From NCBI GenBank assembly GCA_048882045.1, contig JBHLRZ010000011.1:1-64000 (forward strand): 64,000 bases of DNA, read 5' to 3'. The notes beneath the pieces are model-generated. The model did not search any database. It was not told the origin of the DNA and saw nothing but the letters and a program-made list of their open reading frames with translations. Shown piece by piece: positions 6,811 to 48,348 of the stretch; within the stretch, counting starts at the first letter, position 1; every line of letters starts with the position of its first letter. This DNA comes from Candidatus Thorarchaeota archaeon. Its GTDB lineage: Archaea; Asgardarchaeota; Thorarchaeia; Thorarchaeales; Thorarchaeaceae. The position numbers and the translations under genes are program-made.

Positions 6811-7968
6811 TCAGTTTGGATGCCCGGTTCTGGAGGCACCATAGAGGTCTGGGTCATAGAAAGGCCACTTTGTCACCTCAGCCTTTCTCATTCTGCCTTT
6901 AATATCAACCTCAACAATGTCGCCGATGACTACAGTGTTTGGTGTCACATAACCCAGTGCTATCCCCTTGTTCATTGTTGGTGCCAGCCCACCACTGGTT
7001 ACTTCACCAATTTGCTCTCCATTCTGAAGAATGGGATAATGTTCTCTTGGAATTCCACGATCAATCATAGTCAGACCAATGCGTATCTTTCGAATGCCTC
7101 CCTCCTTCTTGTGGTTATTTACGACATCATATCCAATATAATGCGGTTCTACCTTGAATTTTACAGCATAAGGGATCGCAGCTTCGATCGGAGACGTTTC
7201 TTCGTTAAGCTCATGACCATACAGCACAAATCCAGCTTCAAGACGGCAAGAGTCCCTAGCGCCCAGTCCACAGGGCTTGATGTCAAACTCCTTACCTTGG
7301 CTGAGTAGCTCTTCCCAGAATGTTATTGCTTTCTTCTTCCCAGCATCATCGAAGGGTGTATCAAGAAGAAGTATCTCAACACCATCTTCCCCGGTGTACC
7401 CAGTCCGACAGAGATAGCAGTCATATCCAGCAAGCTCTACTCGATATGATGAGAAACGTGGGTACTCGCTTACATCCCTTCCAGCCATCTTGTTCATGAG
7501 TCTGAGAGCATTGGGACCTTGAACTGCAATCATAGTGATTTCTCGGGATTTGTCAGTCACTTCGACTTCGAACATACCAGCATGTTTCAAAAGATGAGCC
7601 TTGATCTTTGGTCCATTTGCAGCATTTGTGATCCATATGTATTCCTCCTCACTTACTCTGTAGAGAGTCAGGTCATCATGGATTCCACCCTTTTCATTCA
7701 GACAGGTTGTGTAATGTCCCCCGTTCACCTCAAGTTTGTTTACGTTGTTGGTTGTCAAAGTCTGAAGAAACTCAGCAGCTTGTGGACCCTTGATTATGAA
7801 CCTCGCCATGTGAGAAGTATCAAACATGCCCACAGAGTTCCTAACAGCCATGTGTTCCTCTCTGATGTCAGTATATCGAACTGGCATCTCCCATCCTGCA
7901 AAGGGGACTACATCACCGTGCTTAACGTGCCAGTCATAGAGATGTGTGCGCTCAAGTACGTCATTCAT
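6811..7968 (-). CDS. gcvT: Glycine cleavage system aminomethyltransferase T
   Basis: FAGWEMPVRY, FDTSHM, RTGYTGEDG, GLGARDSCRLEAG. Confidence 0.97.
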   Translation of the reverse strand: MNDVLERTHLYDWHVKHGDVVPFAGWEMPVRYTDIREEHMAVRNSVGMFDTSHMARFIIKGPQAAEFLQTLTTNNVNKLEVNGGHYTTCLNEKGGIHDDLTLYRVSEEEYIWITNAANGPKIKAHLLKHAGMFEVEVTDKSREITMIAVQGPNALRLMNKMAGRDVSEYPRFSSYRVELAGYDCYLCRTGYTGEDGVEILLLDTPFDDAGKKKAITFWEELLSQGKEFDIKPCGLGARDSCRLEAGFVLYGHELNEETSPIEAAIPYAVKFKVEPHYIGYDVVNNHKKEGGIRKIRIGLTMIDRGIPREHYPILQNGEQIGEVTSGGLAPTMNKGIALGYVTPNTVVIGDIVEVDIKGRMRKAEVTKWPFYDPDLYGASRTGHPN

Positions 7969-12985: not shown

Positions 12986-14917
12986 ATGACCGATGAATCT
13001 TCTACCTTCATTGACTACTTTCCATACGATGAAGCTAGAGAGGGTCAAGATGAGATGATGGAGAGAATCGAGGCTTCGGTCAAAGATAGGACCCACATTT
13101 GTGCAGAGGCGCCTAATGGGTTTGGAAAGACTTGTGTCACCCTGAGTGGGATTTTGCCTTGGATAAAGAAGAATGATGGAAAGGTCCTGTATTGTGCTAG
13201 GACCCACAGACAGCTCGATCGTGTGATGGAGGAATTAGAAGAGATTTCAAAGAAGCAAGATGTTAGTGGCGTGTCTTTTCGTGGGCGCAGACACCTGTGT
13301 CTGAACTCATTTGTATTGGAGAGTGCTGACTTTGTTGCACCAATCTCTGAGGTCTGTGGACAGTTGAAAGCCACTGGGAGATGTACATACTATGAGAATC
13401 TTAGAGGGGCAGGGACCCCAGAAGAGCTCCTTGAGGACATGCCAAAGAAGGTCCTCACAGCTCCAGAGATTACGAAATTGGCAAGGGGCAGATCACTGTG
13501 TCCTTATGAACTCACCAAACGGCTTGCGAAGGTTGTCGATGTTATTGCCCTCTCATACTTGTATGTCTTTGACCCATGGATATTGGATGTCTTTGTCCCG
13601 GACCTTGAAACACCTGCTTCAAAGATGGTTCTTGTACAAGATGAGGCTCACAATGTTCCAACGACCGCATTAGATTCAGCTAGTGATTCTTTGACAATTG
13701 GTACAATCAGGCAAGCTCTTCGAGAAGCTGTAACCTATAATGATGACATTTCCAAGGACTTCAGCCGTGCTCTGGCTATGACGATTCTCGAGATGTCTTC
13801 AGACATGAAAGAGTCTGAAGAAAGAGTTGTTGACCCTCGAAAGATCATCGAATCAGCTATTACAATAGGTCATCTTGAGCATCAAAAGTTCGTGTTGGGT
13901 CATATGAAGGAGTTGGGAGCAAAGATACGGAAAGGGCTCCTCAAAGCAGGAAAGTTTCCTCGCTCCTCAATCTTCAGGGTAAGCGAATTCCTCCTCAGGT
14001 GGCTTAAGACATCAGAGAGGAAAGACTACACATTCTTACTTGCCTCAAGTCGAGGATTTGGAGAGAGCAGAAAGGTTTCCCTAGATCTAGTTGCTCTAGA
14101 TCCAACCTCAGTTACAAGACCTGTTTTAGATCTAATACACAGCTCTGTTGCGATTTCGGGGACTATTTCTCCCTTGGAAGCCTATTCTGAAATGCTTGGA
14201 TTTGAAGCGGATTCTGAGCTAGCAACGTTCCAAAGTCCCTTTGCTCGGAGAAACAGAGCCGGTCTTATAATAGACGGACTAGACACATCGTTCCAGAACC
14301 GTACACAGAAAACATTCGAACGAATGGTAGACCATTGTGTTGCAGTTGCTCATTCAACACCAAGTAACACTGGAATCTTCACATCAAGCTACTCCATCGG
14401 AAAGTTTCTCATTGATGCAGGTCTAGAAAGGAAACTCAAACGAAAGCTCTTCATTGAGAAACCCGGAATGAAAGGTACAGAGAATGATAATTTGATTGAA
14501 GAGTTTAGAAGACAAGGGGATACTGGTGGGGCAGTACTTCTGGGCGTGCAGGGTGGCCGTAACTCTGAGGGAGGTGATTTCCCAGGTCCAACAATGGAGA
14601 GTGTCGTGGTAGTAGGTGTTCCCTATGCTAGGCCAACTCCAAGGGTTGAGTCTCTGATCAACTATTTTGATTCGAGGTTCGACGGAAAGGGACGCGATTA
14701 TGCATATGTACTACCAGCTATGACCAGAGCAATTCAGGCTGCAGGAAGACCAGTCAGAAGACTGGATGACAGGGGTGTGATTGTACTACTTGACCAAAGA
14801 TTCAGTACTCCATACCTCAATAGATTCCTCCCATCCTGGTTGTCTGAAGTTACTGAGGTGATAGGAGATGACCCTGAAACTACGGCTCATCGCGTGGAGA
14901 GTTTCTTTATGGCCTAG
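12986..14917 (+). CDS. xpd: XPD/Rad3-family Fe-S DNA helicase
   Basis: EAPNGFGKT, RTHRQ, Fe-S cysteines, DEAHN, ISGT, SEGGDF, QAAGRPVR. Confidence 0.92.
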   Translation: MTDESSTFIDYFPYDEAREGQDEMMERIEASVKDRTHICAEAPNGFGKTCVTLSGILPWIKKNDGKVLYCARTHRQLDRVMEELEEISKKQDVSGVSFRGRRHLCLNSFVLESADFVAPISEVCGQLKATGRCTYYENLRGAGTPEELLEDMPKKVLTAPEITKLARGRSLCPYELTKRLAKVVDVIALSYLYVFDPWILDVFVPDLETPASKMVLVQDEAHNVPTTALDSASDSLTIGTIRQALREAVTYNDDISKDFSRALAMTILEMSSDMKESEERVVDPRKIIESAITIGHLEHQKFVLGHMKELGAKIRKGLLKAGKFPRSSIFRVSEFLLRWLKTSERKDYTFLLASSRGFGESRKVSLDLVALDPTSVTRPVLDLIHSSVAISGTISPLEAYSEMLGFEADSELATFQSPFARRNRAGLIIDGLDTSFQNRTQKTFERMVDHCVAVAHSTPSNTGIFTSSYSIGKFLIDAGLERKLKRKLFIEKPGMKGTENDNLIEEFRRQGDTGGAVLLGVQGGRNSEGGDFPGPTMESVVVVGVPYARPTPRVESLINYFDSRFDGKGRDYAYVLPAMTRAIQAAGRPVRRLDDRGVIVLLDQRFSTPYLNRFLPSWLSEVTEVIGDDPETTAHRVESFFMA

Positions 14918-44293: not shown

Positions 44294-46075
44294 ATGAGTG
44301 AGAAACGGAAGCTTCGCTCCCCAATCGTTACCGTTCTTGGACACATAGATCATGGAAAGACCTCATTGCTCGATAAAATGCGTGGAACAGGAGTCCAAGA
44401 TAGAGAGGCTGCTGGAATCACTCAACACATTGGAGCCTCATTCTTCCCAACTGAAACGATTCTTTCCATCTGCGGCGAACTCTTGAAGTCTGTCAATACC
44501 GAACTCACGATTGATGGTCTGCTCTTCATAGATACACCTGGCCATGAGGCATATCTTAACCTCAGACGGAGGGGAGGGGCTATAGCAGACATTGCAATAC
44601 TCGTGGTGGACATAAACGAGGGACCTCTCACTCAGTCCTACGAGTCCCTCAAGATTCTTCGCTCAGGAAAGACTCCGTTTCTTATAGCAGCAAACAAACT
44701 CGACAAGGTCCCAGGATGGAGAGACAAACCAGGTATGACTCTTTTTCAGGCAATCAAAGCACAGTCACAGTCTACCCAGAATGAGATTGATAGACGTCTG
44801 TATGAGATTGTGGGTGCTCTCTCAGCTAATGGTATCCAATCAGAACGATTTGACCGTGTTGAGGACTTCAGAAAGACCGTAGCCATCGTTCCCACAAGCG
44901 CCAAGACCGGGGACGGAATTCCAGAGCTTCTCATGGTATTATCAGGCCTGACCCAACAGTACATGCAGGAACGATTGAGAGTATCAAAGGGTCCAGCTAG
45001 AGGGGCAATCCTTGAAGTTCGCGAAGAAACCGGATTGGGACTGACTCTTGACACAATTATCTATGATGGTGTCTTGAGTAAGACTGATACAGTGGTCGTG
45101 GGCGGACTGGATGACGTCATTGTAGCGAAGATACGGGCGTTATTGCAACCAAAACCCCTAGACGAGATTCGAGACCCCAAGGAGAAGTTCACTCAGGTCG
45201 ATAAAGTCCATGCAGCTGCAGGTGTCAAGATTGTCGCTCCCGATATCGAAGGTGCAGTTGCAGGTGCTCCTGTCTACGCGGTGCCCGATCTCCAAAAACT
45301 CGATGAAATCAAACAACGAGTCAGAGATGAGGTGGGTGCGATACGAATCCAAACGGACAAGTCAGGCATAGTTTTGAAGACTGATACTCTTGGCTCGTTG
45401 GAAGCAGTCACACAATTTCTGCAGGAACGAAAGGTTCCAGTAAGAGCAGCTGATGTGGGTCCAATTGTTAAACGTGACATCATAGAAGCCCAAGCTTCAG
45501 GTGATACTGATCCATTGAATGCAGTGGTACTAGGTTTCAATGTCAAGTTTGCTCCGGGCATAGAGGATCTTGCAGCTGAATTGGGCGTTGAAACTTTTCT
45601 GAATGAAGTCATATATCGTTTGTATGATGACTACAACGCTTGGTTGATTGTTAAGAGAGAACAAGAAAAAGCCGAATCACTGAGCTCCATTATCAGACCA
45701 GGGAAAATAGAACTCATGCCAGACTATGTTTTTCGACATAGTAATCCAGCGGTTGTAGGTGTGAAGGTCTATGGCATGATTCGACCTAGAACCACATTAA
45801 TCAACGAAGAGGGCAAACGAGTAGGCACAATTCTACAGATTCAAGACAGAAGCGTCACGATTGACGAGGCCACGGAGGGTATGGAAGTTGCTGTTTCAAT
45901 CCGTGGACCGACAATCGGGAGACAGGTGAAAGACACTGAGATTCTCTATACTGACATTCCTGACAAGCATGTTTTGGCAATCAGAAAGAAGTTCATGGAT
46001 GATCTCTCACAGTCAGAACAGGAAGTCCTGGAAGAATTCACAACCATCAAACGAGCAGCTGGGGCTTTTATCTAA
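44294..46075 (+). CDS. infB: Translation initiation factor aIF5B (IF-2)
   Basis: RSPIVTVLGHIDHGKT, ITQHIGA, DTPGHE, NKLD; ATG 44294 after GAGGTG. Confidence 0.97.
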   Translation: MSEKRKLRSPIVTVLGHIDHGKTSLLDKMRGTGVQDREAAGITQHIGASFFPTETILSICGELLKSVNTELTIDGLLFIDTPGHEAYLNLRRRGGAIADIAILVVDINEGPLTQSYESLKILRSGKTPFLIAANKLDKVPGWRDKPGMTLFQAIKAQSQSTQNEIDRRLYEIVGALSANGIQSERFDRVEDFRKTVAIVPTSAKTGDGIPELLMVLSGLTQQYMQERLRVSKGPARGAILEVREETGLGLTLDTIIYDGVLSKTDTVVVGGLDDVIVAKIRALLQPKPLDEIRDPKEKFTQVDKVHAAAGVKIVAPDIEGAVAGAPVYAVPDLQKLDEIKQRVRDEVGAIRIQTDKSGIVLKTDTLGSLEAVTQFLQERKVPVRAADVGPIVKRDIIEAQASGDTDPLNAVVLGFNVKFAPGIEDLAAELGVETFLNEVIYRLYDDYNAWLIVKREQEKAESLSSIIRPGKIELMPDYVFRHSNPAVVGVKVYGMIRPRTTLINEEGKRVGTILQIQDRSVTIDEATEGMEVAVSIRGPTIGRQVKDTEILYTDIPDKHVLAIRKKFMDDLSQSEQEVLEEFTTIKRAAGAFI

Positions 46076-46111
46076 CTAAACGTTTTTAGGCAGTTCGGGA
46101 AAAAGGTCGAA

Positions 46112-46424
46112 TGCAGCGGGTAGGGCGGGCCGTTTGCCGCGGTCGCGACCACATGGCACTAGTGGCGCCAGTAACCTCGTGGAGGATGAAACCCAATCAC
46201 GAAGAGTTTCGCTGTGGGACTGTGATTAGCAGTCTCTGGAGTCTGTTACAGACATAGCAGCATTCGTAGGTTTGTTGTGATTGTCTTAGATTTCCGAACC
46301 GGGTCAGGCCCTGGCGGGAACAGCCCTAAGGATAGGTAGTGGAGCCCCAGAGGGCGCTGCTTTGAGAAACACTGCGAGCTAACTCAGCGTGAGAAGGACA
46401 TTCGATACATCAGGGGCTGCTGCA
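46112..46424 (+). ncRNA. ffs: Archaeal SRP (7S) RNA, about 313 nt
   Basis: Terminal helix TGCAGCGG/CTGCTGCA, Alu-like 5' region with GTAAC, helix 6 GTAG loop, helix 8 GAACCGGGTCAGGCCC...CAGCCCTAAG. Confidence 0.85.
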
Positions 46425-46431
46425 CCCTCTA

Positions 46432-47514
46432 TTATTCTTCCTTCAAAATCGAGTCTATCTTCTCAACACACTCGTCGTAAGGCAGTCTCCAGCTTTCTGA
46501 CTCTTCACTGTACATGTCAATGAGGTGACAGTATCCTTTGTGGGTATAGTCCACAAGAAACTGAACGAACATCTCGTCCGTGTACTCTTTCAGACCTCGG
46601 AGATGTTTCAGAAACACGTTGGTTTCGGTTGATGGTAAATGGACTTGTACAAAGAAGTGACTACTGCTTTCCATTGTAATCTGATGGTAGAAAGGTAGTT
46701 TGTCAAACCAGAGTAGAATCTTCTTCGCATCCTTTGATTTGAAGAAACACATGACTGTCATGCCTGACTCTGTAAAAGGCTTCATGACGAGTTTATAGCC
46801 TCTAATGATGCCAGACTCCTCGAGTTTCTTGACCCGATTGTGTACCTGTGGTTGTGACAGGTCCAGAATCTCCCCCAACTCACGCAGTTTGATATCTGGA
46901 TTCTCCACCATATGCCTCAGGATCAGTGTGTCTTTTCCATCGAAACTGACTGTCTGAGGGTACTCCTCCAAGTCCAGTTCAATCTCTTTGGCTCTCGACA
47001 TAATCTTCGGAAGGGATTCAGCCCACTTCTCCCAGTCCCAGTCTTCAATCTCTGAAAGCTTGGCCTCGAATCGCTGATAGTCAACAACATCGAAGAGATA
47101 GTAATCCTCAACCAGTCCTTTCTTCTTGAGATCGGCAGCCAGATCAATTATCACACGTGGAGTGTGGAGGGGATAGACCGAGTATATCAGGAATCCCTCA
47201 TATTTTCCATATGTTGTAGCACTAAAGTAGAATACAGGAATTTCTTCCAGTATCTTCTTGAGTTTTGGTTCTTTAGAAGGAACACTGGTCACGACCAGAA
47301 TGTATTCAGCCAGACCAAGCTTTCGCTCGTGTGTCTGGACCTTTGCCTTGCAGAGAATTCCACTCTCTTTCAGTTTGGAGATACGATATCTGATGGTCCT
47401 GCCAGGCTCATCTAAGTGCTCACTAAGCTCTCGTGTTGAAACCTTCGTGCCATACTCTTCAAGGGCGCGGAGGATCTTTAGGTCTAGGGGATCAAGCGAA
47501 GATTTCAGAGACAT
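46432..47514 (-). CDS. Tandem Lrp/AsnC-type transcriptional regulator
   Basis: Two wHTH-plus-effector-domain units: LDLKILRAL...TIRYRISKLKESGIL and DTLILRHM...VHNRVKKLEESGII. Confidence 0.88.
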   Translation of the reverse strand: MSLKSSLDPLDLKILRALEEYGTKVSTRELSEHLDEPGRTIRYRISKLKESGILCKAKVQTHERKLGLAEYILVVTSVPSKEPKLKKILEEIPVFYFSATTYGKYEGFLIYSVYPLHTPRVIIDLAADLKKKGLVEDYYLFDVVDYQRFEAKLSEIEDWDWEKWAESLPKIMSRAKEIELDLEEYPQTVSFDGKDTLILRHMVENPDIKLRELGEILDLSQPQVHNRVKKLEESGIIRGYKLVMKPFTESGMTVMCFFKSKDAKKILLWFDKLPFYHQITMESSSHFFVQVHLPSTETNVFLKHLRGLKEYTDEMFVQFLVDYTHKGYCHLIDMYSEESESWRLPYDECVEKIDSILKEE

Positions 47515-47565
47515 TGTGGATTATCACCATTCCACGTATTTTACGCTGATGAATATACTTATACT

Positions 47566-47723
47566 TTGGCAAACGTATTTAAAAGTAGTCCTACCAAGAG
47601 TTGATTTTCCTATTAACTATTGGCAGGTTCGTGATTTTTTCTTTGCCCAAATATCGGCCTAAGTATTGGCAATGTTTATATACAAATTGTGCCAGAACTT
47701 TAGTAGGTGCTAAAAAATTGGCA
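47566..47723. promoter_or_regulatory. Divergent promoter region with four TTGGCA sites and TATA box TTTATATA (47675-47682)
   Basis: TTGGCA at 47566, 47620, 47666, 47718; inverted partners at 47592, 47644, 47690. Confidence 0.6.
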
Positions 47724-47831
47724 TTTGCAAAATTAATCAAAAAAATCCGTGCTGAGCCTAATCTGGAGGAGCATCTTCGGCTAAAGTCACAAGTGCGGAC
47801 TGAAGTTTACAGAACCTCTTTCCATAGGTAA
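47718..47831 (+). CDS. 37-aa peptide ending TEVYRTSFHR
   Basis: TATA box, AGGTG 8 nt before TTG, C-terminus shared with next ORF, hairpin downstream. Confidence 0.6.
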   Translation: MAFAKLIKKIRAEPNLEEHLRLKSQVRTEVYRTSFHR

Positions 47832-47874
47832 GCACTAGTCATTCATCTCGAGAAAGAGCCACACCGGTGGTAAC

Positions 47875-47910
47875 GGTCGTGTGCGCTTCACGACCTCTTT
47901 TCTCTTTATT
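47875..47910 (+). terminator. Hairpin plus pyrimidine tract
   Basis: GGTCGTG-N7-CACGACC followed by TCTTTTCTCTTTATT. Confidence 0.6.
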
Positions 47911-47982
47911 CTAGAAATCTGGCGGACAATGCCTCTGAACATCACCTCAACCTTTGTCATAGGAATCTAGAGCGTGATCGCA

Positions 47983-48189
47983 ATGCTTGCAACCACGATA
48001 TACGAGTTCAGTAGAACGGTCATCGAGAGAGTAATTCCAGAGAGAGTCAAGAAACAGAAGATTTTGGAATACAAGGACGCCTCGATTGAGCTCCGTCGTC
48101 ATCTTGCAGCAGAGATTGCAAACAGGGAGTTTGAGCAACGGAAGGACAGAGCACTGACTGAGAACCACAGAACGAGTTTCATCCGGTGA
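47983..48189 (+). CDS. 68-aa small protein ending TENHRTSFIR
   Basis: Helical charged ORF; C-terminal motif shared with 47718 peptide; GTG 47974 is an alternative start. Confidence 0.65.
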   Translation: MLATTIYEFSRTVIERVIPERVKKQKILEYKDASIELRRHLAAEIANREFEQRKDRALTENHRTSFIR

Positions 48190-48274
48190 AATTGCCAGCC
48201 TGCTACCATTCTGTTGAATTATGTACTTGGTCACAATCTTTATGTGAGAATCAAGAGCCGAACGATTTACCGGT

Positions 48275-48298
48275 GCTCAGGTAGCCAAGCCTGGTATG
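48275..48298 (+). pseudogene. 5' fragment of a disrupted tRNA-Ser(GCT)
   Basis: GCTCAGG-TA-GCCAAGCCTGGTATG; acceptor strand complements CCTGAGC at 54153-54159; upstream promoter matches that of the intact tRNA-Ser. Confidence 0.8.
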
Positions 48299-48348
48299 AT
48301 TCCTAGTCAATGCTTATCTTGGAGTTGCATACTAAAGATTCGAGGTTT

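What the first reader, a model, noticed from the sequence alone, without database searches (positions are those of the whole stretch)
47705..48189. Two small ORFs with a shared C-terminal K-x4-TExxRTSFxR motif beside a double-Lrp regulator
Seen: a 37-aa ORF (47718-47831, TTG start with AGGTG and an upstream TATA box) ends KSQVRTEVYRTSFHR. The next ORF, 68 aa, ends KDRALTENHRTSFIR. Eight of the last 15 residues are identical and both are flush with the stop, while the rest is unrelated. Codons differ synonymously (gaa/gag, acc/acg, tct/agt, agg/cgg, taa/tga), so the conservation is at the peptide level. Both are divergent from a regulator with two effector-type domains. Inference: an uncharacterised peptide-regulator module in which the C-terminal motif is a ligand or anti-repressor, a processed signal, a degron or a ribosome-arrest sequence.
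Basis: partly seen in the sequence, partly recalled or inferred. Interest (0 to 1): 0.78.

Follow-up and report, generated by a model that had tools for sequence, protein, structure and literature searches.

The report
Thorarchaeal regulator-linked small protein family
The two tiny genes are real, related members of an undescribed family of short helical proteins found only in Thorarchaeota (Asgard archaea); copies sit beside different sensor regulators and all end in the same Arg-x-Ser/Gly-Phe-x-Arg tail, which probably docks on one shared cellular target that is not yet known.

Summary
Observation confirmed, with corrections. ORF A (37 aa) and ORF B (68 aa) are genuine genes under purifying selection. 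They are homologous over 34 residues, not only the tail. The conserved core is [HY]-R-x-[SG]-F-x-R-stop; the shared 'TS' is local to this genome. The family has six copies in this genome and over 110 distinct members in Thorarchaeia, none in other Asgard genomes searched, and no Pfam, NCBIfam, PHROG or PDB match. Linkage to regulators is real: every clade-1 double-Lrp with upstream DNA has an A or B gene divergent from it, and 27 of 28 clade-1 HTH_10 regulators have a B gene beside them, each with its own operator-like palindrome in the small gene's promoter. But A also occurs in near-complete genomes lacking the double-Lrp, and Lrp-linked and unlinked copies are indistinguishable. About 74% of members have a convergent gene downstream, so attenuation is unlikely. 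Best reading: trans-acting effectors, switched by several sensors, that act on one common target (IF7/IF17-like logic). The target is unidentified; the ribosome is my leading guess. No expression data were obtained. The scan had noted only the promoter palindromes before, on this same DNA.

The parts
46432..47514 (-). Double-Lrp regulator (HTH-RAM-HTH-RAM in one chain, 360 aa), clade 1 of a Thorarchaeia family; probable controller of the divergent promoter
   Evidence: Two AsnC-type HTH hits; AF2 model pLDDT 92; closest folds are fused NirDL and Lrp/AsnC proteins; 64 of 85 family genomes carry a relative
47566..47694 (.). Array of GGCA/TGCC palindromic boxes; the last pair brackets the TATA box of ORF A. 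Inferred operator of the double-Lrp
   Evidence: Box positions; conserved in all Lrp-A intergenic regions; a matrix of the box finds only three loci in the genome: here, the promoter beside the second double-Lrp, and a PadR-like gene
47675..47682 (+). TATA-like box of the A-B unit
   Evidence: Sequence; conserved in orthologs
47705..47709 (+). Shine-Dalgarno-like site of ORF A
   Evidence: GGTG-type site 8-9 nt before the start in nearly all A genes
47718..47831 (+). ORF A, 37 aa, net charge +5; short member of the family
   Evidence: Three copies in this genome; 22 of 27 same-genus and 13 of 17 sister-genus genomes; start codon swaps among ATG, TTG and GTG at one position; dN 0.08-0.22 against dS 0.8-1.5
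47784..47831 (+). C-terminal motif of A and its stop codon
   Evidence: K(-15) 98%, Y(-7) 98%, R(-6) 98%, S(-4), F(-3), R(-1) 100% in 55 A sequences
47839..47905 (+). Conserved 3' RNA element of A: a short conserved tract, then an 8-bp hairpin (47875-47895) and a pyrimidine/U run; terminator-like
   Evidence: 96% of cells paired, 6 of 8 pairs with compensatory changes in 33 homologs; hairpin starts 43-51 nt after the stop in most A loci; terminator-like hit
47834..47914 (+). Relic of a third small ORF that runs through the hairpin; it has a start codon in many homologs but not in this copy
47983..48189 (+). ORF B, 68 aa; long member with a variable N-terminal half and a conserved C-terminal helix
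   Evidence: Orthologs follow A in 9 relatives; pN 0.08-0.20 against pS 0.6-1.0; AF2 single helix, pLDDT 85-94 over the conserved part; 87 database relatives, those with a taxon name nearly all Thorarchaeota
48142..48189 (+). C-terminal motif of B and its stop codon
   Evidence: R(-6) 93%, S/G(-4) 86%, F(-3) 84%, R(-1) 95% in 55 B sequences

Best explanation
A and B are paralogous small cytoplasmic proteins that act in trans. Shown: they are coding, homologous, multi-copy and confined to Thorarchaeia among the genomes searched; two different regulator clades each travel with a copy, and a regulator-specific palindrome lies in that copy's promoter. Inferred: each sensor (double-Lrp here, an HTH_10 activator elsewhere, an unknown factor at the kinase-linked copy) switches its own copy on or off, and all copies bind the same conserved cellular partner through the C-terminal helix, with the last six residues and the free terminal Arg buried in a pocket or channel. 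This would let several signals converge on one post-translational brake. The partner is not identified. My leading guess is the ribosome (a tunnel-plugging or hibernation role, about 0.2 overall); an IF7-like inhibition of a central enzyme is next (about 0.15).
For: Coding: dN far below dS; start codon swaps with a conserved SD. Free end matters: no member extends past the motif, 111 of 114 end in Arg, all three stop codons are used and B uses all six Arg codons; no fused form found. Regulators need the gene, not the reverse: 28 of 28 clade-1 double-Lrp loci with upstream DNA have A or B divergent, while none of 20 sampled clade-2 loci do (most have a small winged-HTH gene there); 27 of 28 clade-1 HTH_10 loci have a B gene with a conserved palindrome at its promoter. 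Shared non-Lrp target: A is present in G001 (97% complete) and G013 (92%), where no full-length double-Lrp was found even with a profile; no residue distinguishes Lrp-linked from unlinked A, and the two are more alike within a genome (76%) than across genomes (69%) at equal, near-saturated synonymous divergence; the HTH_10-linked B clade nests among Lrp-linked B genes and keeps the motif. Not cis: 79 of 107 members with a called downstream ORF face a convergent gene. Conserved tail positions fall on all faces of the helix, as expected for an enclosed site (inference). No HPF/RaiA-domain hibernation factor was found in this genome.
Against: Operator assignments rest on adjacency and conservation, not binding data. 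The within-genome similarity could come from old duplications or gene conversion, and related genomes are not independent. The very tight regulator linkage is also what a cognate partner would show. A's last codon is AGG in 49 of 56 genes (17% genome-wide) and doubles as an SD for a downstream small ORF, which points to some cis coupling at the stop. The tail is degenerate in several Lrp-linked B genes. Missing genes in draft genomes may be assembly gaps.
Confidence: 0.55

Rival explanations
1. Each peptide is a direct ligand, co-activator or anti-factor of the regulator beside it; the C-terminal Arg mimics an amino-acid effector in the RAM or RAM-like domain, giving a feedback loop.
For: Near-perfect linkage of both regulator clades to a family gene; B sequences cluster by regulator type on the tree; the double-Lrp has Lrp-like effector folds; precedent of Brb acting with Bat and Brz (PMC3184054).
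Against: A occurs without any double-Lrp and stays at its locus after the Lrp gene is replaced (G015); most A copies have no conserved regulator neighbour; Lrp-linked and unlinked A are interchangeable in sequence; one tail is kept beside unrelated regulators. Clustering by regulator also follows from plain vertical inheritance.
Confidence: 0.2
2. The motif is a nascent-chain arrest sequence that stalls the ribosome at the stop codon (TnaC, SpeFL or PepNL style) and so controls re-initiation, the 3' hairpin or read-through.
For: The conserved part is 31-37 residues, about one exit tunnel; the motif is always flush with the stop; the hairpin lies at a nearly fixed 43-51 nt from A's stop; A's last codon plus stop form an SD followed by a start codon in many loci; stop-codon arrest peptides exist (PMC11890864).
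Against: 74% of members face a convergent gene, and these genes vary; B at this locus lies 19-40 nt from a convergent gene in relatives; B has no such SD or fixed hairpin; the window's copy has lost the downstream start yet keeps the motif; standalone copies are under strong selection.
Confidence: 0.15
3. The tail is a C-terminal degron that keeps the small proteins short-lived; their activity lies in the upstream helix.
For: Invariant terminal Arg with no extension; small regulatory proteins such as IF7 are unstable (PMC6316151).
Against: No larger protein of the genome ends in the motif: family members score 18-45 and the next of 81,159 segments scores 9; the tail is the best conserved part of A.
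Confidence: 0.07
4. The tail is cut off and used as an exported signal peptide (Phr-like).
For: Short precursor with a conserved C-terminal core beside a regulator; some B genes precede an ORF that looks like a peptide-binding transporter subunit by eye (not confirmed by a family search).
Against: Typical members have no hydrophobic segment (median best 15-residue hydropathy -0.1); no protease or exporter is conserved nearby; the core does not vary between lineages as signals usually do.
Confidence: 0.03

Closest known systems
Glutamine synthetase inactivating factors IF7 and IF17 (gifA, gifB) of cyanobacteria (PMC6316151)
   Same: A short and a long paralog, the short one matching the C-terminal part of the long one; basic, Arg-dependent; separate genes under transcription-factor control; one shared target. 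Closest in logic.
   Different: No sequence match; target here unknown; up to six copies under several regulators; invariant aromatic-x-Arg end.
Brb (with Brz and Bat) of Halobacterium salinarum (PMC3184054)
   Same: Small basic archaeal protein working in a circuit with an HTH_10 (Bat-type) activator.
   Different: No homology; Brb is single and locus-specific; this family is shared by unrelated regulators.
Dap1b/Dapl1 and other ribosome hibernation factors (listed in 10.1101/2025.10.11.676729; the exit-tunnel binding of the Dap1b C-terminus is from my own knowledge)
   Same: Small protein whose conserved, basic C-terminal end is the working part.
   Different: No sequence match; no evidence of ribosome binding here; this family is helical and lineage-restricted.
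Stop-codon arrest peptides TnaC, SpeFL (own knowledge) and PepNL (PMC11890864)
   Same: Tunnel-length ORFs with conserved residues at a fixed distance from the stop.
   Different: These lead a regulated operon; most members here face a convergent gene.
Lrp/AsnC regulators and fused siroheme decarboxylase NirDL (for the neighbour)
   Same: HTH plus RAM fold, doubled in one chain as in NirDL (TM about 0.6).
   Different: 14-24% identity; no His-x-Tyr-x-Arg catalytic motif seen in the alignment consensus, so a regulator rather than an enzyme is inferred.

Membership tests
Any described protein family (Pfam, NCBIfam, PHROGs, PDB) | Significant profile match | tested here: not met
   no consistent hit; ESM Atlas gave no usable hit
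Genuine protein-coding small ORFs | Purifying selection, conserved start, SD and stop | tested here: met
Genuine protein-coding small ORFs | Transcription and translation observed | not testable with these tools
IF7/IF17-type enzyme inactivating factors | Sequence homology to IF7/IF17 | tested here: not met
   No Pfam or NCBIfam match
IF7/IF17-type enzyme inactivating factors | Short and long paralogs sharing an Arg-rich C-terminal region, under regulator control | tested here: met
IF7/IF17-type enzyme inactivating factors | Binds and inhibits one enzyme | not testable with these tools
   No target known
Cognate anti-repressor or peptide ligand of an Lrp | Regulator always accompanied by the peptide gene | tested here: met
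   28 of 28 clade-1 loci with upstream DNA
Cognate anti-repressor or peptide ligand of an Lrp | Peptide occurs only where the regulator occurs | tested here: not met
   G001, G013 (A) and G098, G079 (B) have no full-length double-Lrp in their assemblies
Leader/arrest peptide attenuators | Regulated same-strand gene downstream | tested here: not met
   79 of 107 face a convergent gene
Leader/arrest peptide attenuators | Conserved residues at a fixed distance from the stop, with a downstream terminator hairpin | tested here: met
   (hairpin for A only)
Leader/arrest peptide attenuators | Ribosome stalling | not testable with these tools
   Needs toeprinting or Ribo-seq
C-terminal degron | Same tail on diverse larger substrates | tested here: not met
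Exported signal precursors (Phr-like) | Signal peptide or hydrophobic segment | tested here: not met
   Hydropathy scan; no dedicated signal-peptide predictor was run
MicroProteins derived from the small winged-HTH regulators | Homology to the C-terminal helix of the winged-HTH family | tested here: not met
   hhalign probability 0.25%
Ribosome hibernation factors | Binds idle ribosomes | not testable with these tools
   No homology to known factors; HPF/RaiA domain not found in this genome

The most novel reading that the evidence does not exclude
The family is an Asgard-archaeal class of ribosome-targeting peptides: the helix and its terminal Arg occupy the exit tunnel, either in trans as a Dap1-like plug or in cis by arresting at the stop, and several stress sensors each own a copy to throttle translation.
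Probability: 0.3. Interest if true: 0.85.

Novelty: new variant of a known kind. Interest (0 to 1): 0.62.

Why it matters
Small-protein regulation is almost unmapped in Asgard archaea. This is a large, strongly selected, mostly unannotated family (the window's 37-aa protein is absent from the ESM Atlas) with a short motif that can be made synthetically, so its target can be found by one pull-down without culturing the organism. It also yields candidate operators for two Thorarchaeal regulator families. If the target is the ribosome, it would add a new mode of translation control in close prokaryotic relatives of eukaryotes.

Tried and rejected
Predicted complex of the double-Lrp with A: no verdict (score 0.01); not used as evidence either way; B and the HTH_10 pair were not tried (one job only). 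Rfam: nothing at gathering score in 47400-49100. A search of 1.84 billion representatives gave five true A proteins and one repetitive false hit. The apparent 77-aa fusion of A with the next ORF is a gene-caller read-through of TAG; the 129-aa B is a miscalled start. Recoding of the stop as Sec or Pyl rejected: all three stops occur. Resemblances recalled from memory (Lifeact/WH2, VIM, MIM1, RVxF, IQ, HbYX, SecM RAG) fit only single members or lack key residues in the alignments; none was supported by PDB searches. Origin from the winged-HTH tail rejected. Literature search found no description of the family. Pfam look-ups of two downstream ORFs failed on coordinates and were not repeated.

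Full report
Source and observation. The window is contig C11 of a 3.6-Mb, 44% GC genome; named relatives of ORF B are nearly all Candidatus Thorarchaeota. ORF A (47718-47831) and ORF B (47983-48189) are as described, with 8 of the last 15 residues identical and synonymous codons. Among 62,812 stop-ended segments of the genome, only B and two paralogs of A match A's tail that well, so the match is not chance.

Both are real genes. A has three copies in this genome and was found in 22 of 27 same-genus genomes and 13 of 17 of a sister genus. Its start sits at one position and swaps among ATG, TTG and GTG behind a conserved SD. dN is 0.08-0.22 against dS 0.8-1.5 for A, and pN 0.08-0.20 against pS 0.6-1.0 for B. 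I could not obtain expression data.

A and B are one family. Profiles align without gaps over 34 residues and cross-detect each other's members. The shared core is Lys(-15) and [HY]-R-x-[SG]-F-x-R-stop. Of 114 distinct members, 111 end in Arg and none extends past the motif. A tail matrix built without this genome's members picks out exactly six ORFs here (scores 18-45; next best 9 of 81,159). B folds as one helix, confident over its conserved C-terminal 35-40 residues; A has prolines at 10-14, so the common helix is probably the last 23 or so residues (inference). The family was found only in Thorarchaeia: 34 of 76 family genomes and no credible hit in about 225 other Asgard genomes with the B profile, nothing else among 1.84 billion representatives with the A profile, no viral copy, and no library or PDB match.

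Linkage to regulators. The neighbour is a single-chain double Lrp. Its relatives split in two. All 28 loci at 40% identity or more that have upstream DNA carry A, B or both on the divergent strand, across four genera, some with a decayed tail. None of 20 sampled more distant loci does; most have a 94-aa winged-HTH gene there instead. A second B clade lies beside an HVO_A0563-type HTH_10 regulator in 27 of 28 close homologs. Each context has its own promoter element: GGCA/TGCC boxes around the TATA box at Lrp loci, a different palindrome before the HTH_10-linked B and before the HTH_10 gene itself, and a third element before the kinase-linked A copies, shared with one winged-HTH gene. I infer that the regulators control the small genes; binding was not tested.

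Why the target is probably not the neighbour. A is present in G001 (97% complete) and G013 (92%), where a profile finds no full-length double-Lrp; B is present in G098 and G079 likewise. In G015, A stays at its locus although another gene has replaced the Lrp. No residue separates Lrp-linked from unlinked A. Within a genome these two copies are 76% identical, against 69% across genomes, with the same near-saturated synonymous distance (0.62 and 0.63). That fits co-adaptation to one genome-specific partner, but old duplication or conversion could also explain it, and kin are not independent. On a 34-column tree, which resolves few forks, the HTH_10-linked B clade nests among Lrp-linked B genes and keeps the tail.

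Cis or trans. 79 of 107 members with a called downstream ORF face a convergent gene, and these genes vary, so there is usually nothing to attenuate. Some cis features exist for A. A covarying hairpin and U run begin 43-51 nt after the stop in most loci. The last codon is AGG in 49 of 56 genes and forms an SD with the stop; it precedes a conserved 37-aa ORF at one locus type and a 25-31-codon ORF running through the hairpin at another. The window's clade has lost that start codon, and the three CGG endings fall in this clade, yet the peptide motif is intact. So the SD explains the codon choice, not the residue. These features keep stop-codon arrest alive as a rival but do not account for B.

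Mechanism. Best supported (0.55): small trans-acting effectors, each the output gene of a different sensor, binding one conserved partner through a C-terminal helix whose last residues are enclosed, since conserved positions lie on all helix faces and the free Arg end is invariant. The logic resembles IF7/IF17, where a short factor matches the C-terminal part of a long one and Arg residues are essential (PMC6316151), but there is no homology. The ribosome is my leading guess for the partner because of the basic, aromatic end, the tunnel-sized conserved part and the lack of an HPF/RaiA-domain factor in this 93%-complete genome; this step is speculative. Rivals: cognate regulator ligand in the manner of Brb (0.2; PMC3184054), stop-codon arrest (0.15; cf. 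PMC11890864), degron (0.07), exported signal (0.03).

Verdict. A real, previously undescribed small-protein family with strong comparative support and an open mechanism. New variant of a known kind; interest 0.62.

Noticed in passing
window 48229-48296 and about 52200-52320 (-): A 74%-identical copy of the promoter and 5' part of a tRNA-like gene (Ser GCT by eye, probably intron-containing; not called by ARAGORN) lies right after ORF B; the LRR gene cluster sits between the remnant and the intact copy, suggesting an insertion or rearrangement. In relatives a standalone ThrRS editing-domain gene follows B; here it is on contig C70.
   Followed up: partly
L005:7444-7800 (G000 C34, about 14445-14783): Three-small-ORF operon: a 33-aa ORF ending Tyr-Arg-Arg, then an A copy, then a 37-aa ORF with a conserved C-terminal end; each stop overlaps the SD of the next. 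Conserved in G004, G005 and G027. The first ORF may be a divergent family member.
   Followed up: partly
window 47834-47914; intact in L016, L030, L033, L035, L111, L114: A 25-31-codon ORF starting 4-5 nt after A's stop reads through the terminator hairpin and U run; a transcript ending there would be non-stop. The frame is kept in most homologs and broken in some.
   Followed up: partly
L006:5874-6158 and seven more loci: An expanded family of about 94-aa winged-HTH proteins takes the place of the small genes beside clade-2 double-Lrp and shares two promoter types with A genes.
   Followed up: partly
L007 (G000 C22:6678-6704 and 7752-7769); G000 C2:128115-128132: Candidate operator palindrome of the HTH_10 regulator, before its own gene, before the B paralog and before a gene on C2; defines a small candidate regulon.
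   Followed up: partly
G000 C68:360-389: A strong double-Lrp-type box lies between a dUTPase-like gene and a PadR-like gene; a probable second target of the regulator.
   Followed up: no
window 48303-48334, 49012-49043 and about 50363-50394: A 32-nt repeat just upstream of three ORFs in the LRR cluster, suggesting serial duplication of a promoter or SD cassette.
   Followed up: no
window 46060-46430: A 370-nt non-coding stretch after the IF2-like gene, unique in this genome, with a GC-rich part that also appears downstream of the B relic in G004 (L155); possibly a structured RNA.
   Followed up: no
L125, L133, L059: HTH_10-linked B genes with a premature stop or frameshift in or near the tail (G076, G074, G005); the module decays in some lineages.
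   Followed up: no
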